From positions 39,020 through 103,019 of the forward strand of contig CAIOAT010000012.1 in NCBI GenBank assembly GCA_903856085.1: a stretch of 64,000 nucleotides of DNA, in the 5' to 3' direction. Within the stretch, counting starts at the first letter, position 1, and each line of letters begins with the position of its first letter. The notes under the pieces were generated by a model. The model was not told the origin of the DNA. It searched no databases and saw only the letters and a program-made list of their open reading frames with translations. Shown piece by piece: positions 42,785 to 48,209 of the stretch. Origin of the DNA: Candidatus Omnitrophota bacterium (lineage in GTDB: Bacteria; Omnitrophota; Omnitrophia; Omnitrophales; Aquincolibacteriaceae). Position numbers and translations under genes: made by a program.

Positions 42785-45184
42785 ATGGCTCAACAGCAGG
42801 GAATCCTTCCCAGTTATGTTGATGTTCTTGTCACAAATCTGAAAACCGATGCTTCATGGATCGTCCGAAAATCAGCCGCAACGGCTCTTGGGCAATTAGG
42901 GGATCCTCGTGTTGTGGAGTCTCTGATTGAGGCCATGGGGGATATGGATCAGGCCGTGCAGAATGAGGCGGCCAAAGCCATCGCCAGCATGGAATCTTAT
43001 GCTGCCGGTCCGCTGGTGAATGCGCTTAAGAACAGTAATGAACAGATCCAGCGGAGGGCATCCCGTCTTCTTGCGAACATTAAAAATCTCCCCGTGGAAA
43101 TCCTTGCGCCTATTCTCAATGAAAAGAATAATTTGATCCGTGGGTTGGCCATCGAGCTTTTCGGAATTCGCAGGGAGAAACAAAGCGTTCCGTTGCTTAT
43201 GGATTGCTTGAACGATGTCAATCCGGAGATCCGAAGAAAAGCTATCAAATCGTTGGAAATGATCGGGGATGAAGAGGCCGGACCCGCGATCGAGCGTTTC
43301 ATAAAAGATTCCGAAGAAAGCGTGAGAATGGCGGCGGTCGATCTGGCAGAAAGATTATTGTTGAATGATTCTGCGAATGCGGTTGCGGGTGCAATGAACG
43401 ACAGTAATGCGGGGATCCGCAGAAAAGCGGCCATGATCCTCGGGATTTTAGGGAATCCAGTGGCTCTGGAAGCCCTGATGGGAGCGCTGGGCGATAATGA
43501 CGCGTTGGTCCGGGCTAAGGCAGCCGAGGCCTTGGGGCGGTTGGGGAAAAACGAGGCGTTGAGCGCCTTGACCAAGGCTGCGAATGATCCTGATCTCGAG
43601 ACCCAGAAAAAGGTCACAGAAGCTATTTATATTCTTCAGGCCAACAAGACCAAGCCGGAATTGATGGAGGATCTCGGGAATGCCAATGCGAGCATTCGCC
43701 GCCTGGCGGCAATGAAGTTGAGCCATATGGACGGAACTGAGGAAATCGCCGTCTTGATCAAGGCTCTTCAGGATTCAGACGACTACGTTCGCAATTGCGC
43801 GGTGGATGGGCTCATCAAGCGTGATGCGGAGGAAAGTTACTTAGCGCTTGTCCAGGCTCTTGGGGATATGAATAGTCAGATTCGTATCAAGGTGACTCAG
43901 TATTGTCAAGATCTCGGGAGTAAGGTGGCAGTGTTTTTGCGGGACCTATTGGCTACCGGCAATGCGGAAGCCCGCACCCGAGCTATTTCACTTTTAGGGA
44001 AACTCAAGGATGCCCGAGCCGTTGATGCTTTGATCAAACGGCTTCATGATCCGGATCTTCTTGTTCGTTCAGAAGCCGCTCTGGCCATGGGGAGCATGGG
44101 GAATATTGCGATCGATCCTCTGACGCCTCTTTTGGGGGATTCGAACCCGATGATCCAAATGGTTGTCATTGAGGCCTTCGGAAAGATCGGGAGCAACAAG
44201 ATCGTGCAGCCCATGCTTCAGGCGGTCCAGGGAGGCGGGGAAATGATCCAGGCCAAAGCGATATCCGTCCTCGCGACCATGGGGGATTCGGTGCTGAAGG
44301 CTTTGATCGATAGTTTAAAAGAGCAGAATCCTTCCGCCGTGCGAAAGATGGCCGCGGAAGTTCTTGGCAGGATCGGGGATAAAAAAGCTGTCCCGCCGTT
44401 GCTGGAGGCATTGAGCGATGGCGATACTGAGGTGCGGAAAAAGGTCGTGGAGGCTCTTAACGAGTTCTCGGACCCGCGCATCACGAAAAAAATGATCGAG
44501 CTGATCAAAAATGAAGAACCTTCCATCAAACTTCGAGCGGCCTGGTGCCTGGCTCAGCAGATGGATCCCTTGGCGGTGGATGCGCTCGTGGATCTTTTGA
44601 AAAGTGACAATGTTTCGGTCCGGGAAGAAGCGATGTGGGTGTTGAGTCGTATGCGGGATCTTCCCATTGTCGCGATCCGTAAGTGTGTGAAAGACGCTAA
44701 CCCTCAGGTTCGTGTACTCGCGGTGCGGTTGCTGGGCTTTCTTGGCGGGAGGGCGAGCTCGGATTCGTTGATCGATGCCTTAAAGGATTCCGATGATAAG
44801 GTCCGGGAAATGGCTGTTCGCAGTATCGCTCAAACAGGCGATAAGACGGCGATAGAAACATTGAGTTCGGTCATGAAGGATTCCAATGAAAAGATCCGCG
44901 CATTGGCGTCGGAAGCTCTGGGCGTGGTGGCCAGTAGTGAGGTGGTCGCCCCAGGTCGTAAATGCCCGCGATGCGGCAGGCCCCTTCGGGAAATGAAAAA
45001 ATACAAGGGGGATACGTTCAATCCCGGGCTTTATTGGGGATGTATGATAGGGGGAGTGTTTCTGACCCCGGTTTTTATTGGGGTGTTTCTCATGCTCTAT
45101 GCTTGGAAGATGAGGACGGAGCGCAAGCGCTTTTTGATGTGTGTTTATTGTCAGGAAATGGTTTCTCTGAAGTGGCACGACTAA
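42785..45184 (+). CDS. 799-aa HEAT/PBS-lyase-repeat protein with C-terminal zinc ribbon and TM anchor
   Basis: About 20 repeats of the AxxALGxLGD..AV..L pattern. C-terminus CPRCGRP ... TM helix ... CVYCQ. Confidence 0.8.
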   Translation: MAQQQGILPSYVDVLVTNLKTDASWIVRKSAATALGQLGDPRVVESLIEAMGDMDQAVQNEAAKAIASMESYAAGPLVNALKNSNEQIQRRASRLLANIKNLPVEILAPILNEKNNLIRGLAIELFGIRREKQSVPLLMDCLNDVNPEIRRKAIKSLEMIGDEEAGPAIERFIKDSEESVRMAAVDLAERLLLNDSANAVAGAMNDSNAGIRRKAAMILGILGNPVALEALMGALGDNDALVRAKAAEALGRLGKNEALSALTKAANDPDLETQKKVTEAIYILQANKTKPELMEDLGNANASIRRLAAMKLSHMDGTEEIAVLIKALQDSDDYVRNCAVDGLIKRDAEESYLALVQALGDMNSQIRIKVTQYCQDLGSKVAVFLRDLLATGNAEARTRAISLLGKLKDARAVDALIKRLHDPDLLVRSEAALAMGSMGNIAIDPLTPLLGDSNPMIQMVVIEAFGKIGSNKIVQPMLQAVQGGGEMIQAKAISVLATMGDSVLKALIDSLKEQNPSAVRKMAAEVLGRIGDKKAVPPLLEALSDGDTEVRKKVVEALNEFSDPRITKKMIELIKNEEPSIKLRAAWCLAQQMDPLAVDALVDLLKSDNVSVREEAMWVLSRMRDLPIVAIRKCVKDANPQVRVLAVRLLGFLGGRASSDSLIDALKDSDDKVREMAVRSIAQTGDKTAIETLSSVMKDSNEKIRALASEALGVVASSEVVAPGRKCPRCGRPLREMKKYKGDTFNPGLYWGCMIGGVFLTPVFIGVFLMLYAWKMRTERKRFLMCVYCQEMVSLKWHD

Positions 45185-46150: not shown

Positions 46151-46627
46151 ATGCGAGTCCTTGGTATTGATCCCGGCACGCATCGGACCGGATTTGGGGT
46201 TCTCGAATCGGACGGCCGGAGCTATAAACTCGTGATCTGTGGGACCATCCGCGCGGCAGCCAAAGACCCCATCGCCAAACGCCTCCTTCATATTTTTGAA
46301 TCTCTCCAAAAGAACATTCAAAGTTATAAGCCCGATGTGGTAGTGCTTGAGACTCTCTTTTTCGCCAAGGATATCCGGGCCGTCGAACGGATCGGGGCGG
46401 CACGCGCCTGTGCCATGCTCGCGGCTTCTAAACAGGGCCTTGAAGTGATAGAATACGCTCCGACCGCGGTGAAAAAGTCTGTGACCGGTAACGGTCGCGC
46501 TTCCAAGGATCAGGTTCAATTCATGGTGAAGCGACTTTTAAATTTGAAAGAGGCGCCTGCACTCGATGCCTCAGACGCCTTGGCGATCGCGATGTGTTAT
46601 TTGCATTCTTCTAAACGAAAAACGTAA
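46151..46627 (+). CDS. ruvC: crossover junction endodeoxyribonuclease RuvC
   Basis: RBS GGAGG precedes the ATG. N-terminus MRVLGIDPGTHRTGFGVLE. Confidence 0.85.
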   Translation: MRVLGIDPGTHRTGFGVLESDGRSYKLVICGTIRAAAKDPIAKRLLHIFESLQKNIQSYKPDVVVLETLFFAKDIRAVERIGAARACAMLAASKQGLEVIEYAPTAVKKSVTGNGRASKDQVQFMVKRLLNLKEAPALDASDALAIAMCYLHSSKRKT

Positions 46628-46656
46628 TGAACCATTTGTTCAACAAGGAGGCACCC

Positions 46657-47514
46657 ATGTTTCTTCGGTTTCTTTTCGCGTGTTGCTTTGCCATCTCGAT
46701 GGTTTTCTGCAGTACGACGGCTTTCGCGGGGCAAGTCCAGCTTACAACCTACTATCCCTCACCGTATGGTGAGTATCAGCAGTTAAAGGCGACGGGTGTT
46801 GATACCAACAATGGCACCACTGCGTTGCAGGCGGCAGGGAGTTCAGGAACGGGATTGATTGTGACGAACGCGAACAATGTCGGCATCGGGACGACGGCGC
46901 CGAATGCAAAACTTAGTTTCGGAACGTCTGTTCAGGATAATGATATCTATCTGTACGATGGAACAAGTGACAAGTATGGATTCGGCGTAAGATCTAGCCA
47001 GTTCATGATCTATAGCGGTGCAGGCGGGGCTTCCACGGGCGGTGTCACTTTAGGAAAATTTGATGGGACAACATTTACAGAAGCCATGAGAATACGAAAT
47101 GATGGCAACGTCGGCATCGGGACGACGGCCCCGGCTTATAAATTAGCAGTAGCGGGAACGATCTGGGCGAATGGGACGGTCATCACTGCGGGAATTGCGA
47201 CATGGTCGGATGTCAGGCTAAAAGAAAACGTAGAATCCATCGGTAACGGTCTTGACAGGATTGAAAAATTGAACGGGGTTTTTTATGACTGGAAACAGAA
47301 TGAATTTACAAAGAATTTCCCTAAAGGGAGGCAAATAGGTTTGATCGCTCAGGACGTCGAAAAGGTCGTGCCGGAATTAGTAACCGAGGGTGAAGACGGT
47401 TATAAAAAGGTTTCTTACGAAAGGTTAACAGCCGTACTCGTAGAAGCTGTAAAAGAACAGCAACAACAGATCGATTTGTTGAAAAAAGAAATCGCGGAAC
47501 TGAAAAAGCGGTAA
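46657..47514 (+). CDS. secreted tail-fibre-like protein with C-terminal peptidase S74 / intramolecular chaperone domain
   Basis: RBS AAGGAGG precedes the ATG. Signal peptide. NVGIGTTAP repeats. C-terminus SDVRLKENV...GLIAQDVEKVVPE...coiled coil matches the autoproteolytic chaperone domain of phage tail fibres and endosialidases. Confidence 0.75.
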   Translation: MFLRFLFACCFAISMVFCSTTAFAGQVQLTTYYPSPYGEYQQLKATGVDTNNGTTALQAAGSSGTGLIVTNANNVGIGTTAPNAKLSFGTSVQDNDIYLYDGTSDKYGFGVRSSQFMIYSGAGGASTGGVTLGKFDGTTFTEAMRIRNDGNVGIGTTAPAYKLAVAGTIWANGTVITAGIATWSDVRLKENVESIGNGLDRIEKLNGVFYDWKQNEFTKNFPKGRQIGLIAQDVEKVVPELVTEGEDGYKKVSYERLTAVLVEAVKEQQQQIDLLKKEIAELKKR

Positions 47515-47606
47515 GCTGATCTGCGGAAGAAATGTAATAGTTTCCAAGAAAGGGACAGGTATTGATTGACAGACTGTCCCCTTCTTGAAACAAAGGAACA
47601 GTTCAA

Positions 47607-48209
47607 ATGTACCATTACTTGACAGGAAAGATCGCGGAGAAGACGCCGGTGGCGGTGATCCTGGATGTGAACGGGATCGGCTACGAGGTGCGCGTTTCTC
47701 TCTCCACGTTTTCAAGCCTTCCCGCGCTTGGGCAAACCGTGAAACTTTTCACGCATTTCGTTGTGCGTGAAGATGCCCAGTTACTTTACGGCTTTGCGAC
47801 GGAGGAAGAACGCGAGGCGTTCAAGCTTCTTATTTCTATTTCCGGGATCGGCCCCAAGCTTGCGATCACGCTTTTATCCGGTGTCACACTTCCGGAATTG
47901 AAACATGCGATTCAGGAGAAAAACATTCCGGTGCTAACGGCGATTTCCGGGATCGGTCAGAAGACCGCCGAACGCGTGATCATTGAACTCAAGGACAAGA
48001 TCGGCAAGGCGGAGGTTTCGGCCGGCAAAGAACTCATCCATGACGCGAGCGTTTCAGACCAGATGGTCGAGGATTCGGTTTCGGCGCTTGTGTCGCTTGG
48101 TTATACCAAACAAAAAGCCAAGGAAGCCATTCAGAAAACACTGAAGGCGATGCTTGGTAAAAAACCGTCGGTGGAAGAAATCATCCGCGCGGCGCTGAAA
48201 CATGTTTGA
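47607..48209 (+). CDS. ruvA: Holliday junction DNA helicase RuvA
   Basis: MYHYLTGKI...GIGYEV N-terminus. HhH motifs GIGPK and GIGQKTA. Confidence 0.9.
   Translation: MYHYLTGKIAEKTPVAVILDVNGIGYEVRVSLSTFSSLPALGQTVKLFTHFVVREDAQLLYGFATEEEREAFKLLISISGIGPKLAITLLSGVTLPELKHAIQEKNIPVLTAISGIGQKTAERVIIELKDKIGKAEVSAGKELIHDASVSDQMVEDSVSALVSLGYTKQKAKEAIQKTLKAMLGKKPSVEEIIRAALKHV

What the first reader, a model, noticed from the sequence alone, without database searches (positions are those of the whole stretch)
46657..47514. Secreted phage-tail-fibre-like protein with an S74 intramolecular-chaperone domain inserted between ruvC and ruvA
yebC-ruvC-ruvA-ruvB is an almost universally contiguous housekeeping block. 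Here a 285-aa gene with its own strong RBS (AAGGAGG) sits between ruvC and ruvA.
The protein has a signal peptide and Gly/Thr/Asn-rich beta-type repeats (NVGIGTTAPNAKL / NVGIGTTAPAYKL).
Its C-terminal ~110 aa (SDVRLKENVESIGNGLDRIEKLNGVFYDWK...GLIAQDVEKVVPELV...coiled coil) match the autoproteolytic chaperone domain found at the C-termini of phage tail fibres, tailspikes and endosialidases.
No other phage genes, integrase or att-like repeat flank it, so this is a host-encoded fibre or adhesin rather than a prophage remnant.
Such chaperone-assisted trimeric fibres on bacterial surfaces have been linked to cell-cell attachment in predatory or epibiotic bacteria.
Basis: partly seen in the sequence, partly recalled or inferred. 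Interest (0 to 1): 0.6.

Follow-up and report, generated by a model that had tools for sequence, protein, structure and literature searches.

The report
Swappable mini surface fibre in ruv operon
An uncultured Omnitrophota bacterium carries, wedged between two DNA-repair genes, a small exported protein built like the tip of a phage tail fibre; it is one interchangeable version of a large, undescribed family of probable cell-surface fibres that share one short N-terminal "handle".

Summary
A 285-aa gene (46657-47514, +) with an AAGGAGG ribosome-binding site lies between Pfam-confirmed ruvC and ruvA. It has a signal peptide, two NVGIGTTAP..KL loops and a C-terminal Peptidase_S74 chaperone domain (66.7 bits; SDxxxK dyad S184/K189; fold matches MyRF and endosialidase chaperones). 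It is host-encoded, not phage cargo: neighbours within 10 kb are housekeeping genes, and no att/IS repeats flank it. Phage relatives are at most 31% identical and never cover the signal peptide.

New points:
- 12 close Omnitrophota relatives have an empty slot, in 11 of which ruvC overlaps ruvA by 16 nt. Four hold unrelated small genes.
- The window's own clade holds different genes in this slot with the same 5' end (ruvC end, RBS, signal peptide, handle) but different tips: S74, PTL_trimer or unknown. This looks like a tip-swapping slot.
- The handle, (V/I)x(L/V)TTYYP(S/A)PYGxY, defines about 5,220 protein clusters. It is always N-terminal, is absent from 2.9 million viral contigs and has no Pfam or NCBIfam model.
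- Handle genes recur beside type IV pilin-like genes.

The closest known system is the Bdellovibrio MAT fibres. I rate this a new variant of a known kind.

The parts
46151..46627 (+). ruvC. Its last few codons and its stop codon differ from empty-slot relatives, where ruvC runs 16 nt into ruvA.
   Evidence: PF02075 at 161.8 bits. Homology to the empty-slot relative L015 ends at 46620. The 16-nt overlap is seen in 11 relatives.
46621..47606 (+). Inserted segment relative to empty-slot relatives (986 nt). It holds a new ruvC end, the RBS, the fibre gene, and a 3' spacer with a hairpin and a new RBS for ruvA.
   Evidence: blastn against L015 breaks at 46620 and resumes at 47607.
46644..46650 (+). 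Ribosome-binding site AAGGAGG, 6 nt upstream of the ATG.
   Evidence: Read directly from the sequence. GGGGAGG or GAGAGG sits at the same place in L036, L040 and L038.
46657..47514 (+). Fibre gene: 285-aa precursor made of signal peptide, handle, short stalk or beta-helix, and S74 chaperone.
46657..46728 (+). Predicted Sec signal peptide, aa 1-24, cut AFA|G.
   Evidence: Hydropathy and the -3/-1 rule. The position is conserved in homologues.
46729..46791 (+). N-terminal handle of the mature protein, aa 25-45: GQVQLTTYYPSPYGEYQQLKA. Proposed docking or sorting module.
   Evidence: Y32, Y33, P34, P36 and G38 are invariant. The profile finds 5,220 clusters, with the match at or within about 30 residues of the N-terminus in all 150 listed hits. 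The pattern has no match in viral contigs.
46876..46914 (+). Capping-loop type repeat 1, NVGIGTTAPNAKL (aa 74-86).
   Evidence: It aligns to the beta-helix repeats of Bdellovibrio MAT structures 8ond and 8oml.
47107..47145 (+). Capping-loop type repeat 2, NVGIGTTAPAYKL (aa 151-163), 21 residues before the cleavage serine.
   Evidence: aligned to 8ond, 8ol4, 8oml and MyRF 7dc3.
47206..47223 (+). Predicted autoproteolytic site S184-D-V-R-L-K189 (the SDxxxK dyad). Cleavage before S184 would leave a mature chain of aa 25-183, about 16.3 kDa.
   Evidence: It aligns with SDRRIK of phage S16 fibre 6f45 and with the A/S-DLRAK position of MyRF 7dc3. S184, D185 and K189 are at least 90% conserved. The motif is defined in PMC10769870.
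47206..47511 (+). C-terminal intramolecular chaperone (Peptidase_S74) domain, aa 184-285, ending in a long helix (aa 254-284).
   Evidence: PF13884 at 66.7 bits; pLDDT about 90; Foldseek hits 7dc3, 3gw6 and 3gud.
47540..47591 (+). Stable hairpin in the 92-nt spacer before ruvA: a stem of about 17 pairs in three segments, a 15-nt loop, and no U-tract. Its role is unknown; it is not a canonical terminator.
   Evidence: MFE -25.4 kcal/mol, z = -2.5. The terminator scan did not call it.
47607..48209 (+). ruvA, now with its own upstream AAGGAA instead of overlapping ruvC.
   Evidence: Pfam RuvA_N, HHH_5 and RuvA_C; sequence.

Best explanation
The gene encodes a host (Omnitrophota) surface mini-fibre of the phage tail-fibre type.

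Proposed mechanism:
1. The precursor is exported by Sec and its signal peptide is cut after Ala24.
2. Three chains fold into a short interdigitated beta-helix bounded by two capping loops (aa ~70-183). The C-terminal S74 intramolecular chaperone guides this folding.
3. The chaperone then cuts itself off before Ser184 using the Ser184/Lys189 dyad. This leaves a trimer of about 16 kDa per chain.
4. The conserved N-terminal handle (TTYYPSPYGEY) attaches the trimer to a common envelope partner or export route. The distal beta-helix acts as the ligand-binding tip.

The gene sits in a variable slot created by an insertion between ruvC and ruvA in the ancestor of a small clade. Within that slot the 5' part (ruvC end, RBS, signal peptide, handle) is kept. 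The tip-encoding part is exchanged by recombination, which gives each lineage a different tip.

Shown here: the domain architecture, the intact catalytic motif, the non-phage context, the slot polymorphism, the conserved arms, and the size and modularity of the family.

Inferred: trimerisation, self-cleavage, surface location, docking through the handle, and an adhesin role.
For: Architecture
- S74 domain at 66.7 bits. The fold matches MyRF and the endosialidase chaperones.
- SDxxxK is aligned to known catalytic positions.
- The stalk repeats align to Bdellovibrio MAT beta-helix structures 8ond, 8oml, 8ol4 and 8ojn.
- 45 PHROG tail-fibre families match the C-terminal 120-260 aa.

Precedent
- Bdellovibrio MAT fibres are signal-peptide-bearing, surface-located and trimeric. 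Bd3182 was shown to self-cleave at S782 (PMC10769870).

Host origin
- Neighbours are housekeeping genes, and GC content is like the flanks.
- The handle pattern has 0 matches in IMG/VR, against at least 599 stretches in metagenome contigs.
- Phage hits are at most 31% identical and start at aa 29-60.

Variable slot
- 12 relatives are empty (ruvC overlaps ruvA by 16 nt in 11 of them and by 1 nt in L024), and 4 carry other cargo.
- L036, L038, L040, L039 and L053 carry handle genes with other tips.
- Nucleotide homology at about 80% runs from ruvC through codon 40-80 of the gene, then breaks.
- The window, L038 and L036 form one clade on the ruvC+ruvA tree.
- L036 has two tandem alleles separated by a 257-nt duplicate, 95.7% identical, of the ruvC end, RBS and first 62 codons.

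Handle as a shared module
- 5,220 clusters, with the match at or within about 30 residues of the N-terminus in all 150 listed hits, on proteins of 56-627 aa.
- The tips that can be identified are trimer-forming types: S74 26 of 130, plus C1q, Gp53-like_C and Peptidase_G2. PTL_trimer is also seen.
Against: - There is no experimental or multimer-model evidence for trimerisation, cleavage or surface exposure. The monomer model is unconfident for aa 24-181.
- The protein has no known outer-membrane anchoring or secretion signal, so it could stay in the periplasm or be released.
- The handle's role is inferred only from its conservation and position.
- The mature fibre is very short (159 aa) compared with characterised fibres of 600-1000 aa.
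- The clade on the tree is built from the flanking genes themselves. Those genes could have been transferred together with the slot.
- The signal peptide was judged by rule of thumb only.
Confidence: 0.68

Rival explanations
1. The fibre is a client or tip component of a type IV pilus or type II secretion-like machine. After Sec export and folding in the periplasm, the handle binds the minor-pilin (pseudopilin) tip complex. That complex carries the fibre through the secretin and displays it at the pilus tip, as PilY1-type adhesins are displayed. This differs from the main model only in naming the partner.
For: - A conserved Omnitrophota locus (LpxD and SurA_N on one side; IMPDH-like, GuaA and DnaE on the other) has 4-6 pilin-like N_methyl genes directly followed by handle genes. 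These are P0010 (S74, 432 aa), three tandem S74 genes, or 71-75-aa mini handle proteins plus an 883-896-aa secreted GLUG protein.
- Pilin-like ORFs are about 9 times denser in handle loci than in control DNA. 6 of 34 loci have them directly upstream.
- Type 4a pili are near-universal in Omnitrophota (PMC10066038).
- The MAT paper itself raises possible interplay with type IV pili.
Against: - The pilin-adjacent cases may all be one syntenic locus, and so a single evolutionary observation.
- Most handle genes, including the one in this window, are not next to pilin genes.
- There is no interaction evidence.
- The window itself has no pilin-like ORF.
Confidence: 0.2
2. It is a released or periplasmic soluble trimer with a non-adhesive job. 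Examples would be a glycan-binding or glycan-cleaving protein acting on the cell's own envelope or on prey polysaccharide, or a decoy that blocks phage receptors. It would not be a cell-anchored fibre.
For: - No recognised anchor is present: no lipobox, TM segment, sortase signal or beta-barrel (sequence).
- S74 domains also mature soluble enzymes such as endosialidases (Pfam description).
- About 100 of 130 handle proteins have no recognisable tip domain, so their functions may be diverse.
Against: - The invariant N-terminal handle, shared by thousands of proteins with different tips, is hard to explain for unrelated soluble proteins.
- The stalk contains only beta-helix repeats and no catalytic domain.
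- The best-studied bacterial analogues are surface-located.
Confidence: 0.12
3. It is a prophage, tailocin or contractile-injection-system remnant: a tail-fibre gene left behind by, or belonging to, a phage-derived element.
For: - There is strong homology to phage tail-fibre C-termini: 45 PHROG families and 1,439 phage records.
- NCBI names homologues 'tail fiber domain-containing protein'.
Against: - The protein has a signal peptide.
- No phage, tail, integrase or att features are present within the surveyed region.
- The same holds for 8 homologue contexts.
- The handle is absent from 2.9 million viral contigs.
- Identity to phage proteins is at most 31%.
- The 5' part of the gene has diverged in step with ruvC, at about 80%.
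Confidence: 0.04

Closest known systems
Bdellovibrio bacteriovorus MAT (mosaic adhesive trimer) fibres, S74 subgroup, e.g. Bd3182 (PMC10769870; PDB 8ol4/8onf, 8ond, 8oml, 8ojn)
   Same: - Host-encoded, with a signal peptide.
- Beta-helix stalk built from RMRI..GNVGIGT.AP..KL.V capping-loop units that align to the query.
- C-terminal S74 chaperone with SDxxxK.
- A conserved N-terminal part combined with variable tips ('tip swapping').
- Found in a predatory or host-dependent lineage.
   Different: - MATs are about 600-1000 aa with long stalks and a conserved beta-rich N-domain of about 130 aa. Here the whole precursor is 285 aa. The conserved N-terminal element is a motif of about 20 aa, with only about 50 aa before the first capping loop.
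- A different phylum.
- The gene lies in a variable slot inside the ruv operon.
- The family also includes mini-proteins of about 45-50 mature residues.
Phage tail-fibre and tailspike C-terminal intramolecular chaperone domains (Peptidase_S74: K1F endosialidase 3gw6, GA-1 3gud, T5 pb1 4uw8, S16 gp37 6f45)
   Same: - The same domain family and the same catalytic motif.
- The same position at the extreme C-terminus, after a trimeric beta-helix.
   Different: - Phage proteins have no signal peptide. Their N-termini attach to a virion baseplate or tail, and they are encoded among structural genes.
- Identity is at most 31%.
Eukaryotic MYRF intramolecular chaperone auto-processing (ICA) domain (PDB 7dc3)
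   Same: - The best structural match (E 7.5e-7, TM 0.69 normalised to the target).
- The capping loop plus S/K dyad align.
   Different: MYRF is a membrane-bound transcription factor. Its cleavage releases a DNA-binding domain, so its biology is unrelated.
Replacement-type variable surface loci flanked by conserved genes (e.g. O-antigen or capsule loci, pilin or flagellin glycosylation islands). This comparison is from general knowledge and was not tested here.
   Same: Conserved flanks act as recombination arms, and different lineages carry different alleles of a surface structure.
   Different: - Here the cassette is a single gene, sometimes two, and one recombination arm lies inside the gene itself (signal peptide plus handle).
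- The slot interrupts a translationally coupled DNA-repair gene pair.

Membership tests
Peptidase_S74 / intramolecular chaperone domain proteins | Match to PF13884 above the gathering threshold | tested here: met
   66.7 bits against a 22-bit cutoff, full-length match 1-58/58 at aa 184-243.
Peptidase_S74 / intramolecular chaperone domain proteins | Catalytic Ser-Lys dyad in an SDxxxK motif at the start of the domain | tested here: met
   S184-D-V-R-L-K189. It aligns to SDRRIK of 6f45 and to the corresponding MyRF position. It is at least 90% conserved among homologues. The motif is as defined in PMC10769870.
Peptidase_S74 / intramolecular chaperone domain proteins | Chaperone fold at the extreme C-terminus, ending in a long helix | tested here: met
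   pLDDT is about 90 for aa 184-285, with a helix at aa 254-284. Foldseek hits are 7dc3, 3gw6 and 3gud.
Peptidase_S74 / intramolecular chaperone domain proteins | Trimerisation-dependent self-cleavage | not testable with these tools
   This needs expression with an S184A control, or at least a multimer model. Only monomer prediction was available.
Bdellovibrio-type MAT surface fibres | N-terminal signal peptide | tested here: met
   Heuristic only: Arg4, a hydrophobic core and AFA|G. The feature is conserved across homologues.
Bdellovibrio-type MAT surface fibres | Conserved beta-rich N-terminal domain of about 130 aa directly after the signal peptide | tested here: not met
   Only about 50 residues separate the cleavage site (aa 24) from the first capping loop (aa 74). 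The conserved element is a motif of about 20 aa. No direct comparison with a MAT N-domain sequence was made.
Bdellovibrio-type MAT surface fibres | Beta-helix with capping-loop motif (V-G-G/N-pi-x-x-P-x-x-x-L) | tested here: met
   The two NVGIGTTAP..KL units align to 8ond, 8oml, 8ol4 and 8ojn. The spacing differs by one residue from the published consensus.
Bdellovibrio-type MAT surface fibres | Long fibre (hundreds of residues of stalk) exposed on the cell surface | tested here: not met
   The mature chain is predicted to be 159 aa. Surface exposure cannot be tested here.
Prophage / phage structural module | Neighbouring phage structural, integrase or lysis genes, or att sites | tested here: not met
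   The homologue contexts also lack them.
Type IV pilins / pseudopilins | Class III signal (G|FTLxE) with an N-methylation motif | tested here: not met
   The query has no PF07963 hit, and the hydrophobic segment precedes the conserved motif. A few S74 homologues such as P0071 do carry N_methyl.
Handle family (proposed here): SP + (V/I)x(L/V)TTYYP(S/A)PYGxY | The motif begins 3-10 residues after the predicted signal-peptide cut at the protein N-terminus | tested here: met
   The query scores 85.4 bits against the handle profile, as P0001. Invariant residues Y32, Y33, P34, P36 and G38 are present.

The most novel reading that the evidence does not exclude
The TTYYP(S/A)PYG handle marks a previously undescribed, phylum-wide Omnitrophota system of modular trimeric surface fibres. 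The system has about 5,000 protein clusters, from 45-residue mini-proteins to 600-aa fibres with S74, C1q, PTL or unknown tips. All of them would dock through the handle onto one common envelope machine, possibly the type IV pilus minor-pilin complex. They would serve as exchangeable host- or prey-recognition tips for these ultra-small, host-dependent bacteria. Dedicated recombination slots, such as ruvC|ruvA, would let lineages swap tips while keeping the handle.
Probability: 0.3. Interest if true: 0.78.

Novelty: new variant of a known kind. Interest (0 to 1): 0.62.

Why it matters
Omnitrophota are abundant, uncultured, ultra-small bacteria. They are thought to live as predators or parasites (PMC10066038), but how they recognise partner cells is unknown. 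Discussion so far has centred on giant ORFs and pili.

This finding points to a second candidate recognition system that is experimentally tractable. The proteins are small and self-maturing, resemble phage receptor-binding proteins, and share one conserved handle with many interchangeable tips.

- The proteins are small enough to express, so cleavage, trimerisation and ligand binding can be tested directly.
- The handle gives a simple sequence tag for cataloguing the whole repertoire in any genome.
- The ruvC|ruvA slot is a clean natural example of tip swapping by recombination at an arm inside the gene.
- It extends the Bdellovibrio MAT concept to another phylum with a different anchoring solution. 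That suggests host-dependent bacteria have repeatedly recruited phage fibre modules.

Tried and rejected
1. Relic of the ruvA start. Right after the ruvC stop the window reads TAATGAACCATTTG, against ATGTACCAYTAC in ruvA, which suggests a target duplication. The alignment is not significant (shuffle p of about 0.05 against the window's own ruvA and 0.4 against L015), and L036, L038 and L040 lack it. I treat it as inconclusive. A clear 37-nt duplicate of the ruvA 5' end does exist in L010, upstream of its Fic/RhuM cargo.

2. Recent foreign acquisition. GC is 0.41-0.52 across the gene against about 0.51-0.55 in the flanks, and the dip lies in the Lys/Glu-rich S74 part. There is no composition signal.

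3. Own promoter or terminator. The sigma-70 and terminator scans found nothing above shuffled expectation. The downstream hairpin is stable (z = -2.5) but has no U-tract.

4. Paralogues in the window or in about 300 kb of related loci. None were found besides the known ones. The genome-wide count could not be obtained.

5. Monomer AlphaFold model of the stalk. It was unconfident (pLDDT below 50 for aa 24-181), as expected for an interdigitated trimer. No multimer tool was available.

6. NCBIfam gave no family for the protein. The local Pfam copy lacks PF26696, so the PTL_trimer assignment for P0065 rests on the precomputed annotation.

7. Literature. No paper combines Omnitrophota with tail fibres, and none contains the handle motif string.

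8. The handle-only word-index search returned only proteins shorter than 95 aa, apparently a length effect. The exhaustive search corrected this.
Full report
OBSERVATION

The ORF is real. It runs 46657-47514 on the + strand, encodes 285 aa, and is preceded by AAGGAGG (46644-46650). Pfam confirms the neighbours as yebC, ruvC, ruvA and ruvB. The protein matches Peptidase_S74 (PF13884) at 66.7 bits against a 22-bit cutoff, over the whole model, at aa 184-243. Forty-five PHROG tail-fibre families match its C-terminal 120-260 residues, and NCBIfam has no model for it.

The N-terminus looks like a Sec signal peptide with an AFA|G cut after residue 24. This rests on the hydropathy and -3/-1 rule only.

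A monomer AlphaFold model is confident only for aa 184-285 (pLDDT about 90), which ends in a 30-residue helix. Its best structural matches are the MyRF ICA domain (7dc3, E 7.5e-7) and the endosialidase/GA-1 intramolecular chaperones (3gw6, 3gud). Residue alignments place S184 and K189 on the SDxxxK catalytic positions of the phage S16 fibre and MyRF. They also place the units 'RMRI..GNVGIGT.AP..KL.VAG' on the beta-helix repeats of the Bdellovibrio MAT structures 8ond, 8oml, 8ol4 and 8ojn.

ORGANISM AND PHAGE QUESTION

The exact protein occurs on 10 metagenome contigs with the same neighbours. RuvA is 82-96% identical to 17 Omnitrophota MAGs in GTDB, and an 18th (L024) is 64% identical. Genes within 10 kb on each side carry only housekeeping Pfam families. 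No att- or IS-like repeats flank the gene, and the only tRNA is 8 kb away. GC content is unremarkable.

Against 50,697 phage genomes the protein finds 1,439 records. Identity is at most 31%, and alignments begin at residue 29-60, so they never cover the signal peptide. Eight homologue contexts also lack phage genes. The prophage explanation is therefore very unlikely.

THE INSERTION IS ONE ALLELE OF A VARIABLE SLOT

In 12 of 16 GTDB relatives that have both genes, nothing lies between ruvC and ruvA. In 11 of these ruvC runs 16 nt into ruvA. Four others carry unrelated cargo at the same junction. L010 has a Fic/RhuM gene, flanked by a 37-nt duplicate of the ruvA 5' end. L019, L020 and L023 have small membrane proteins.

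Three to five further genomes carry a gene in this slot that starts like the window's gene but ends differently:
- L038 (P0065, 208 aa) is 73% identical to the query over aa 1-88, then has a PF26696 PTL_trimer region and a Cys-rich tail.
- L036 has two tandem genes with identical first 55 residues. One is a PTL-like 236-aa protein and the other is the S74 fibre P0029.
- L040 and L039 have a 388-aa protein whose tip has no Pfam match but hits phrog_17490.
- L053, whose RuvC is only 73% identical, also has a handle gene directly after ruvC.

At nucleotide level, homology at about 80%, the same as in the flanking genes, runs without a break from ruvC through the RBS, signal peptide and handle. 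It reaches 46776-46896 and then stops. It resumes at 47452 (L036) or at the ruvA start (L038, L040). Against the empty-slot relative L015 the breakpoints are 46620 and 47607.

On a ruvC+ruvA neighbour-joining tree the window, L038 and L036 form one clade. In L036 a 257-nt segment is duplicated at 95.7% identity between the two alleles. It comprises the last 46 nt of ruvC, the RBS and the first 62 codons. The simplest reading is one ancestral insertion, followed by exchange or tandem addition of tip-encoding parts. Recombination would use the conserved 5' arm and the ruvA-side arm. This is an inference. The tree is built from the arms themselves, so co-transfer of arms and cargo cannot be excluded.

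THE HANDLE

Right after the predicted signal-peptide cut, full-length homologues share a nearly invariant motif, (V/I)x(L/V)TTYYP(S/A)PYGxYxxL. It is present in 23 of the top 120 S74 homologues, almost always at about aa 30-35.

A profile of this region alone finds 5,220 representatives of 50%-identity clusters at E <= 0.001 (848 at <= 1e-10) among 1.84 billion proteins. The match is at or within about 30 residues of the N-terminus in all 150 listed hits, on proteins of 56-627 aa. Source names are almost all Omnitrophota. The pattern TYYP[SA]PYG has no match in 2.9 million IMG/VR contigs but at least 599 in metagenome contigs. The motif string is absent from the literature library.

Of the 130 best handle proteins, 26 carry S74 and one each carries C1q, Gp53-like_C and Peptidase_G2. 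About 100 have no Pfam domain. Some are complete mini-proteins of 71-76 aa with a second motif, GEIWVE. Tandem arrays of handle genes are common. The handle is thus a shared N-terminal module on many tips. Where the tips can be identified they are trimer-forming, which fits a common docking, sorting or nucleation role.

PILIN LINK

A conserved Omnitrophota locus has 4-6 pilin-like genes with classical G|FTLAELL N-termini (N_methyl) directly followed by handle genes. The locus is bounded by LpxD and SurA_N on one side and by IMPDH-like, GuaA and DnaE on the other. The handle genes there are:
- the S74 fibre P0010;
- three tandem S74 genes including P0030;
- mini handle proteins plus an 883-896-aa secreted GLUG/Cys-rich protein.

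One of these loci (L033) comes from the same sample as the window's own contig. By a regex test, pilin-like ORFs are about 9 times denser in handle loci than in control Omnitrophota DNA. They lie directly upstream in 6 of 34 loci that have enough sequence. These cases may all be one syntenic locus, so I treat the pilus connection as a lead and not as a result.

COMPARISON WITH KNOWN SYSTEMS

The closest described system is the Bdellovibrio MAT fibre family. Those fibres have a signal peptide, a conserved N-terminal domain, a trimeric beta-helix with capping loops, and variable tips. Thirteen of 21 end in an S74 domain whose self-cleavage at SDxxxK was shown experimentally, and the fibres sit on the predator surface (PMC10769870).

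The window's protein works like a minimal version: signal peptide, handle, one Bd3182-like tip module with two capping loops, and the chaperone. It fails two MAT features, the N-domain of about 130 aa and the long stalk. I therefore do not file it as a MAT member. I file it as a new variant of the same kind.

Omnitrophota are proposed to be mostly predators or parasites with near-universal type 4a pili (PMC10066038). Neither that paper nor a 2026 complete-genome survey mentions S74 or tail-fibre-like proteins.

MECHANISM AND CONFIDENCE

Shown:
- the domain architecture and the intact dyad;
- the host context;
- the slot polymorphism with conserved arms;
- the size and modularity of the family.

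Inferred from established S74 biology and the MAT precedent: folding as a trimer, self-cleavage before S184 to give about 16 kDa mature chains, and exposure of a binding surface.

Inferred from conservation only: the handle docks the fibre to a common partner.

Not shown: surface location, ligand, expression, or any effect on ruvA/ruvB expression. The insertion replaces the 16-nt ruvC/ruvA overlap with a 92-nt spacer that holds a stable hairpin and a new AAGGAA.

I put 0.68 on the overall model and 0.2 on the pilus- or T2SS-linked variant. I put 0.12 on a soluble, non-adhesive role and 0.04 on a phage or tailocin remnant.

VERDICT

The single gene is a modest novelty. What lifts it is the variable, tip-swapping slot inside a DNA-repair operon and the large unannotated handle family, with its hint of a pilus connection. 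Interest is 0.62.

Noticed in passing
window 46729-46791; proteins P0121-P0370: The N-terminal handle (V/I)x(L/V)TTYYP(S/A)PYGxY defines about 5,220 50%-identity clusters. The match is at or within about 30 residues of the N-terminus in all 150 listed hits, and source names are almost all Omnitrophota. There is no Pfam or NCBIfam model and no literature hit, and the pattern is absent from IMG/VR.
   Followed up: yes
L033 7001-7228, L035 7001-7216 and 7312-7539, L034 5096-5326 and 7001-7231: Complete mini handle proteins (71-76 aa precursors, about 45-50 aa mature) carry a second conserved motif, LKVPV...GEIWVE. They are often followed within 8 nt by a large secreted GLUG-repeat/Cys-rich protein of 530-896 aa. 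Their function is unknown.
   Followed up: partly
L007/L008 6121-9299, L033 4555-9926, L035 1999-10177, L037 2419-7801: A conserved Omnitrophota locus (LpxD and SurA_N on one side; IMPDH-like, GuaA and DnaE on the other) has 4-6 type IV pilin-like genes directly followed by handle genes. These are S74 fibres, sometimes three in tandem, or mini-proteins plus a protein of about 900 aa that sits where PilY1 would be.
   Followed up: partly
L010 4957-4993 and 5016-5996: In Omnitrophica RIFOXYB12_FULL_50_7 the same ruvC|ruvA junction holds a 326-aa RhuM/Fic gene. It is preceded by a 37-nt duplicate (30 of 37 identical) of the ruvA 5' end, a target-duplication-like signature.
   Followed up: partly
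L019 5557-5976 and 6642-6905; L020 5588-5968; L023 5419-6000: Other relatives carry small membrane or secreted ORFs of unknown function in the ruvC|ruvA junction. L019 also has an 87-aa ORF between ruvA and ruvB. The ruv operon of this clade accepts single-gene insertions at several junctions.
   Followed up: no
window 47593-47606 and L023 5983-5996: A 14-nt identity (AAGGAACAGTTCAA) lies immediately upstream of ruvA in the window (non-coding) and in L023 (the 3' end of its membrane-protein ORF). L036 has a near-identical stretch. This may be a shared remnant of an older slot content, or a conserved RBS context.
   Followed up: partly
window 46625-46645: The ruvC stop overlaps an in-frame ATG (TAATG), followed by AACCATTTG. 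This resembles the ruvA start (ATGTACCAYTAC) and may be a decayed duplicate. It is not significant by the shuffle test (p about 0.05-0.4).
   Followed up: yes
window 47540-47591: A stable hairpin (about 17 pairs in three segments, 15-nt loop, z = -2.5) without a U-tract lies between the fibre gene and ruvA. It could attenuate or stabilise the transcript.
   Followed up: partly
window 42785-45184: A 799-aa HEAT/armadillo-like repeat protein lies just upstream of yebC. It has a C-terminal CxxC...CxxC segment and a hydrophobic helix, and no Pfam family is on record for it. It is conserved in the exact-match contigs.
   Followed up: no
L040 581-1747 (also L039): This slot allele has a 388-aa handle protein whose C-terminal 150 aa (..TFIIQHPLEQDKYLVHATLEGPENAVFYRG..) match only PHROGs of unknown function (phrog_17490, phrog_28536). 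It may be another fibre tip or chaperone type.
   Followed up: partly
P0071, P0027, P0028, P0039 (S74 homologues without the handle): Some bacterial S74 proteins instead start with a type IV pilin N_methyl motif (P0071) or an 'AWTEP/AWTSP' N-terminus. This suggests that S74 fibre tips have been fused directly to pilin-like anchors in other lineages.
   Followed up: no
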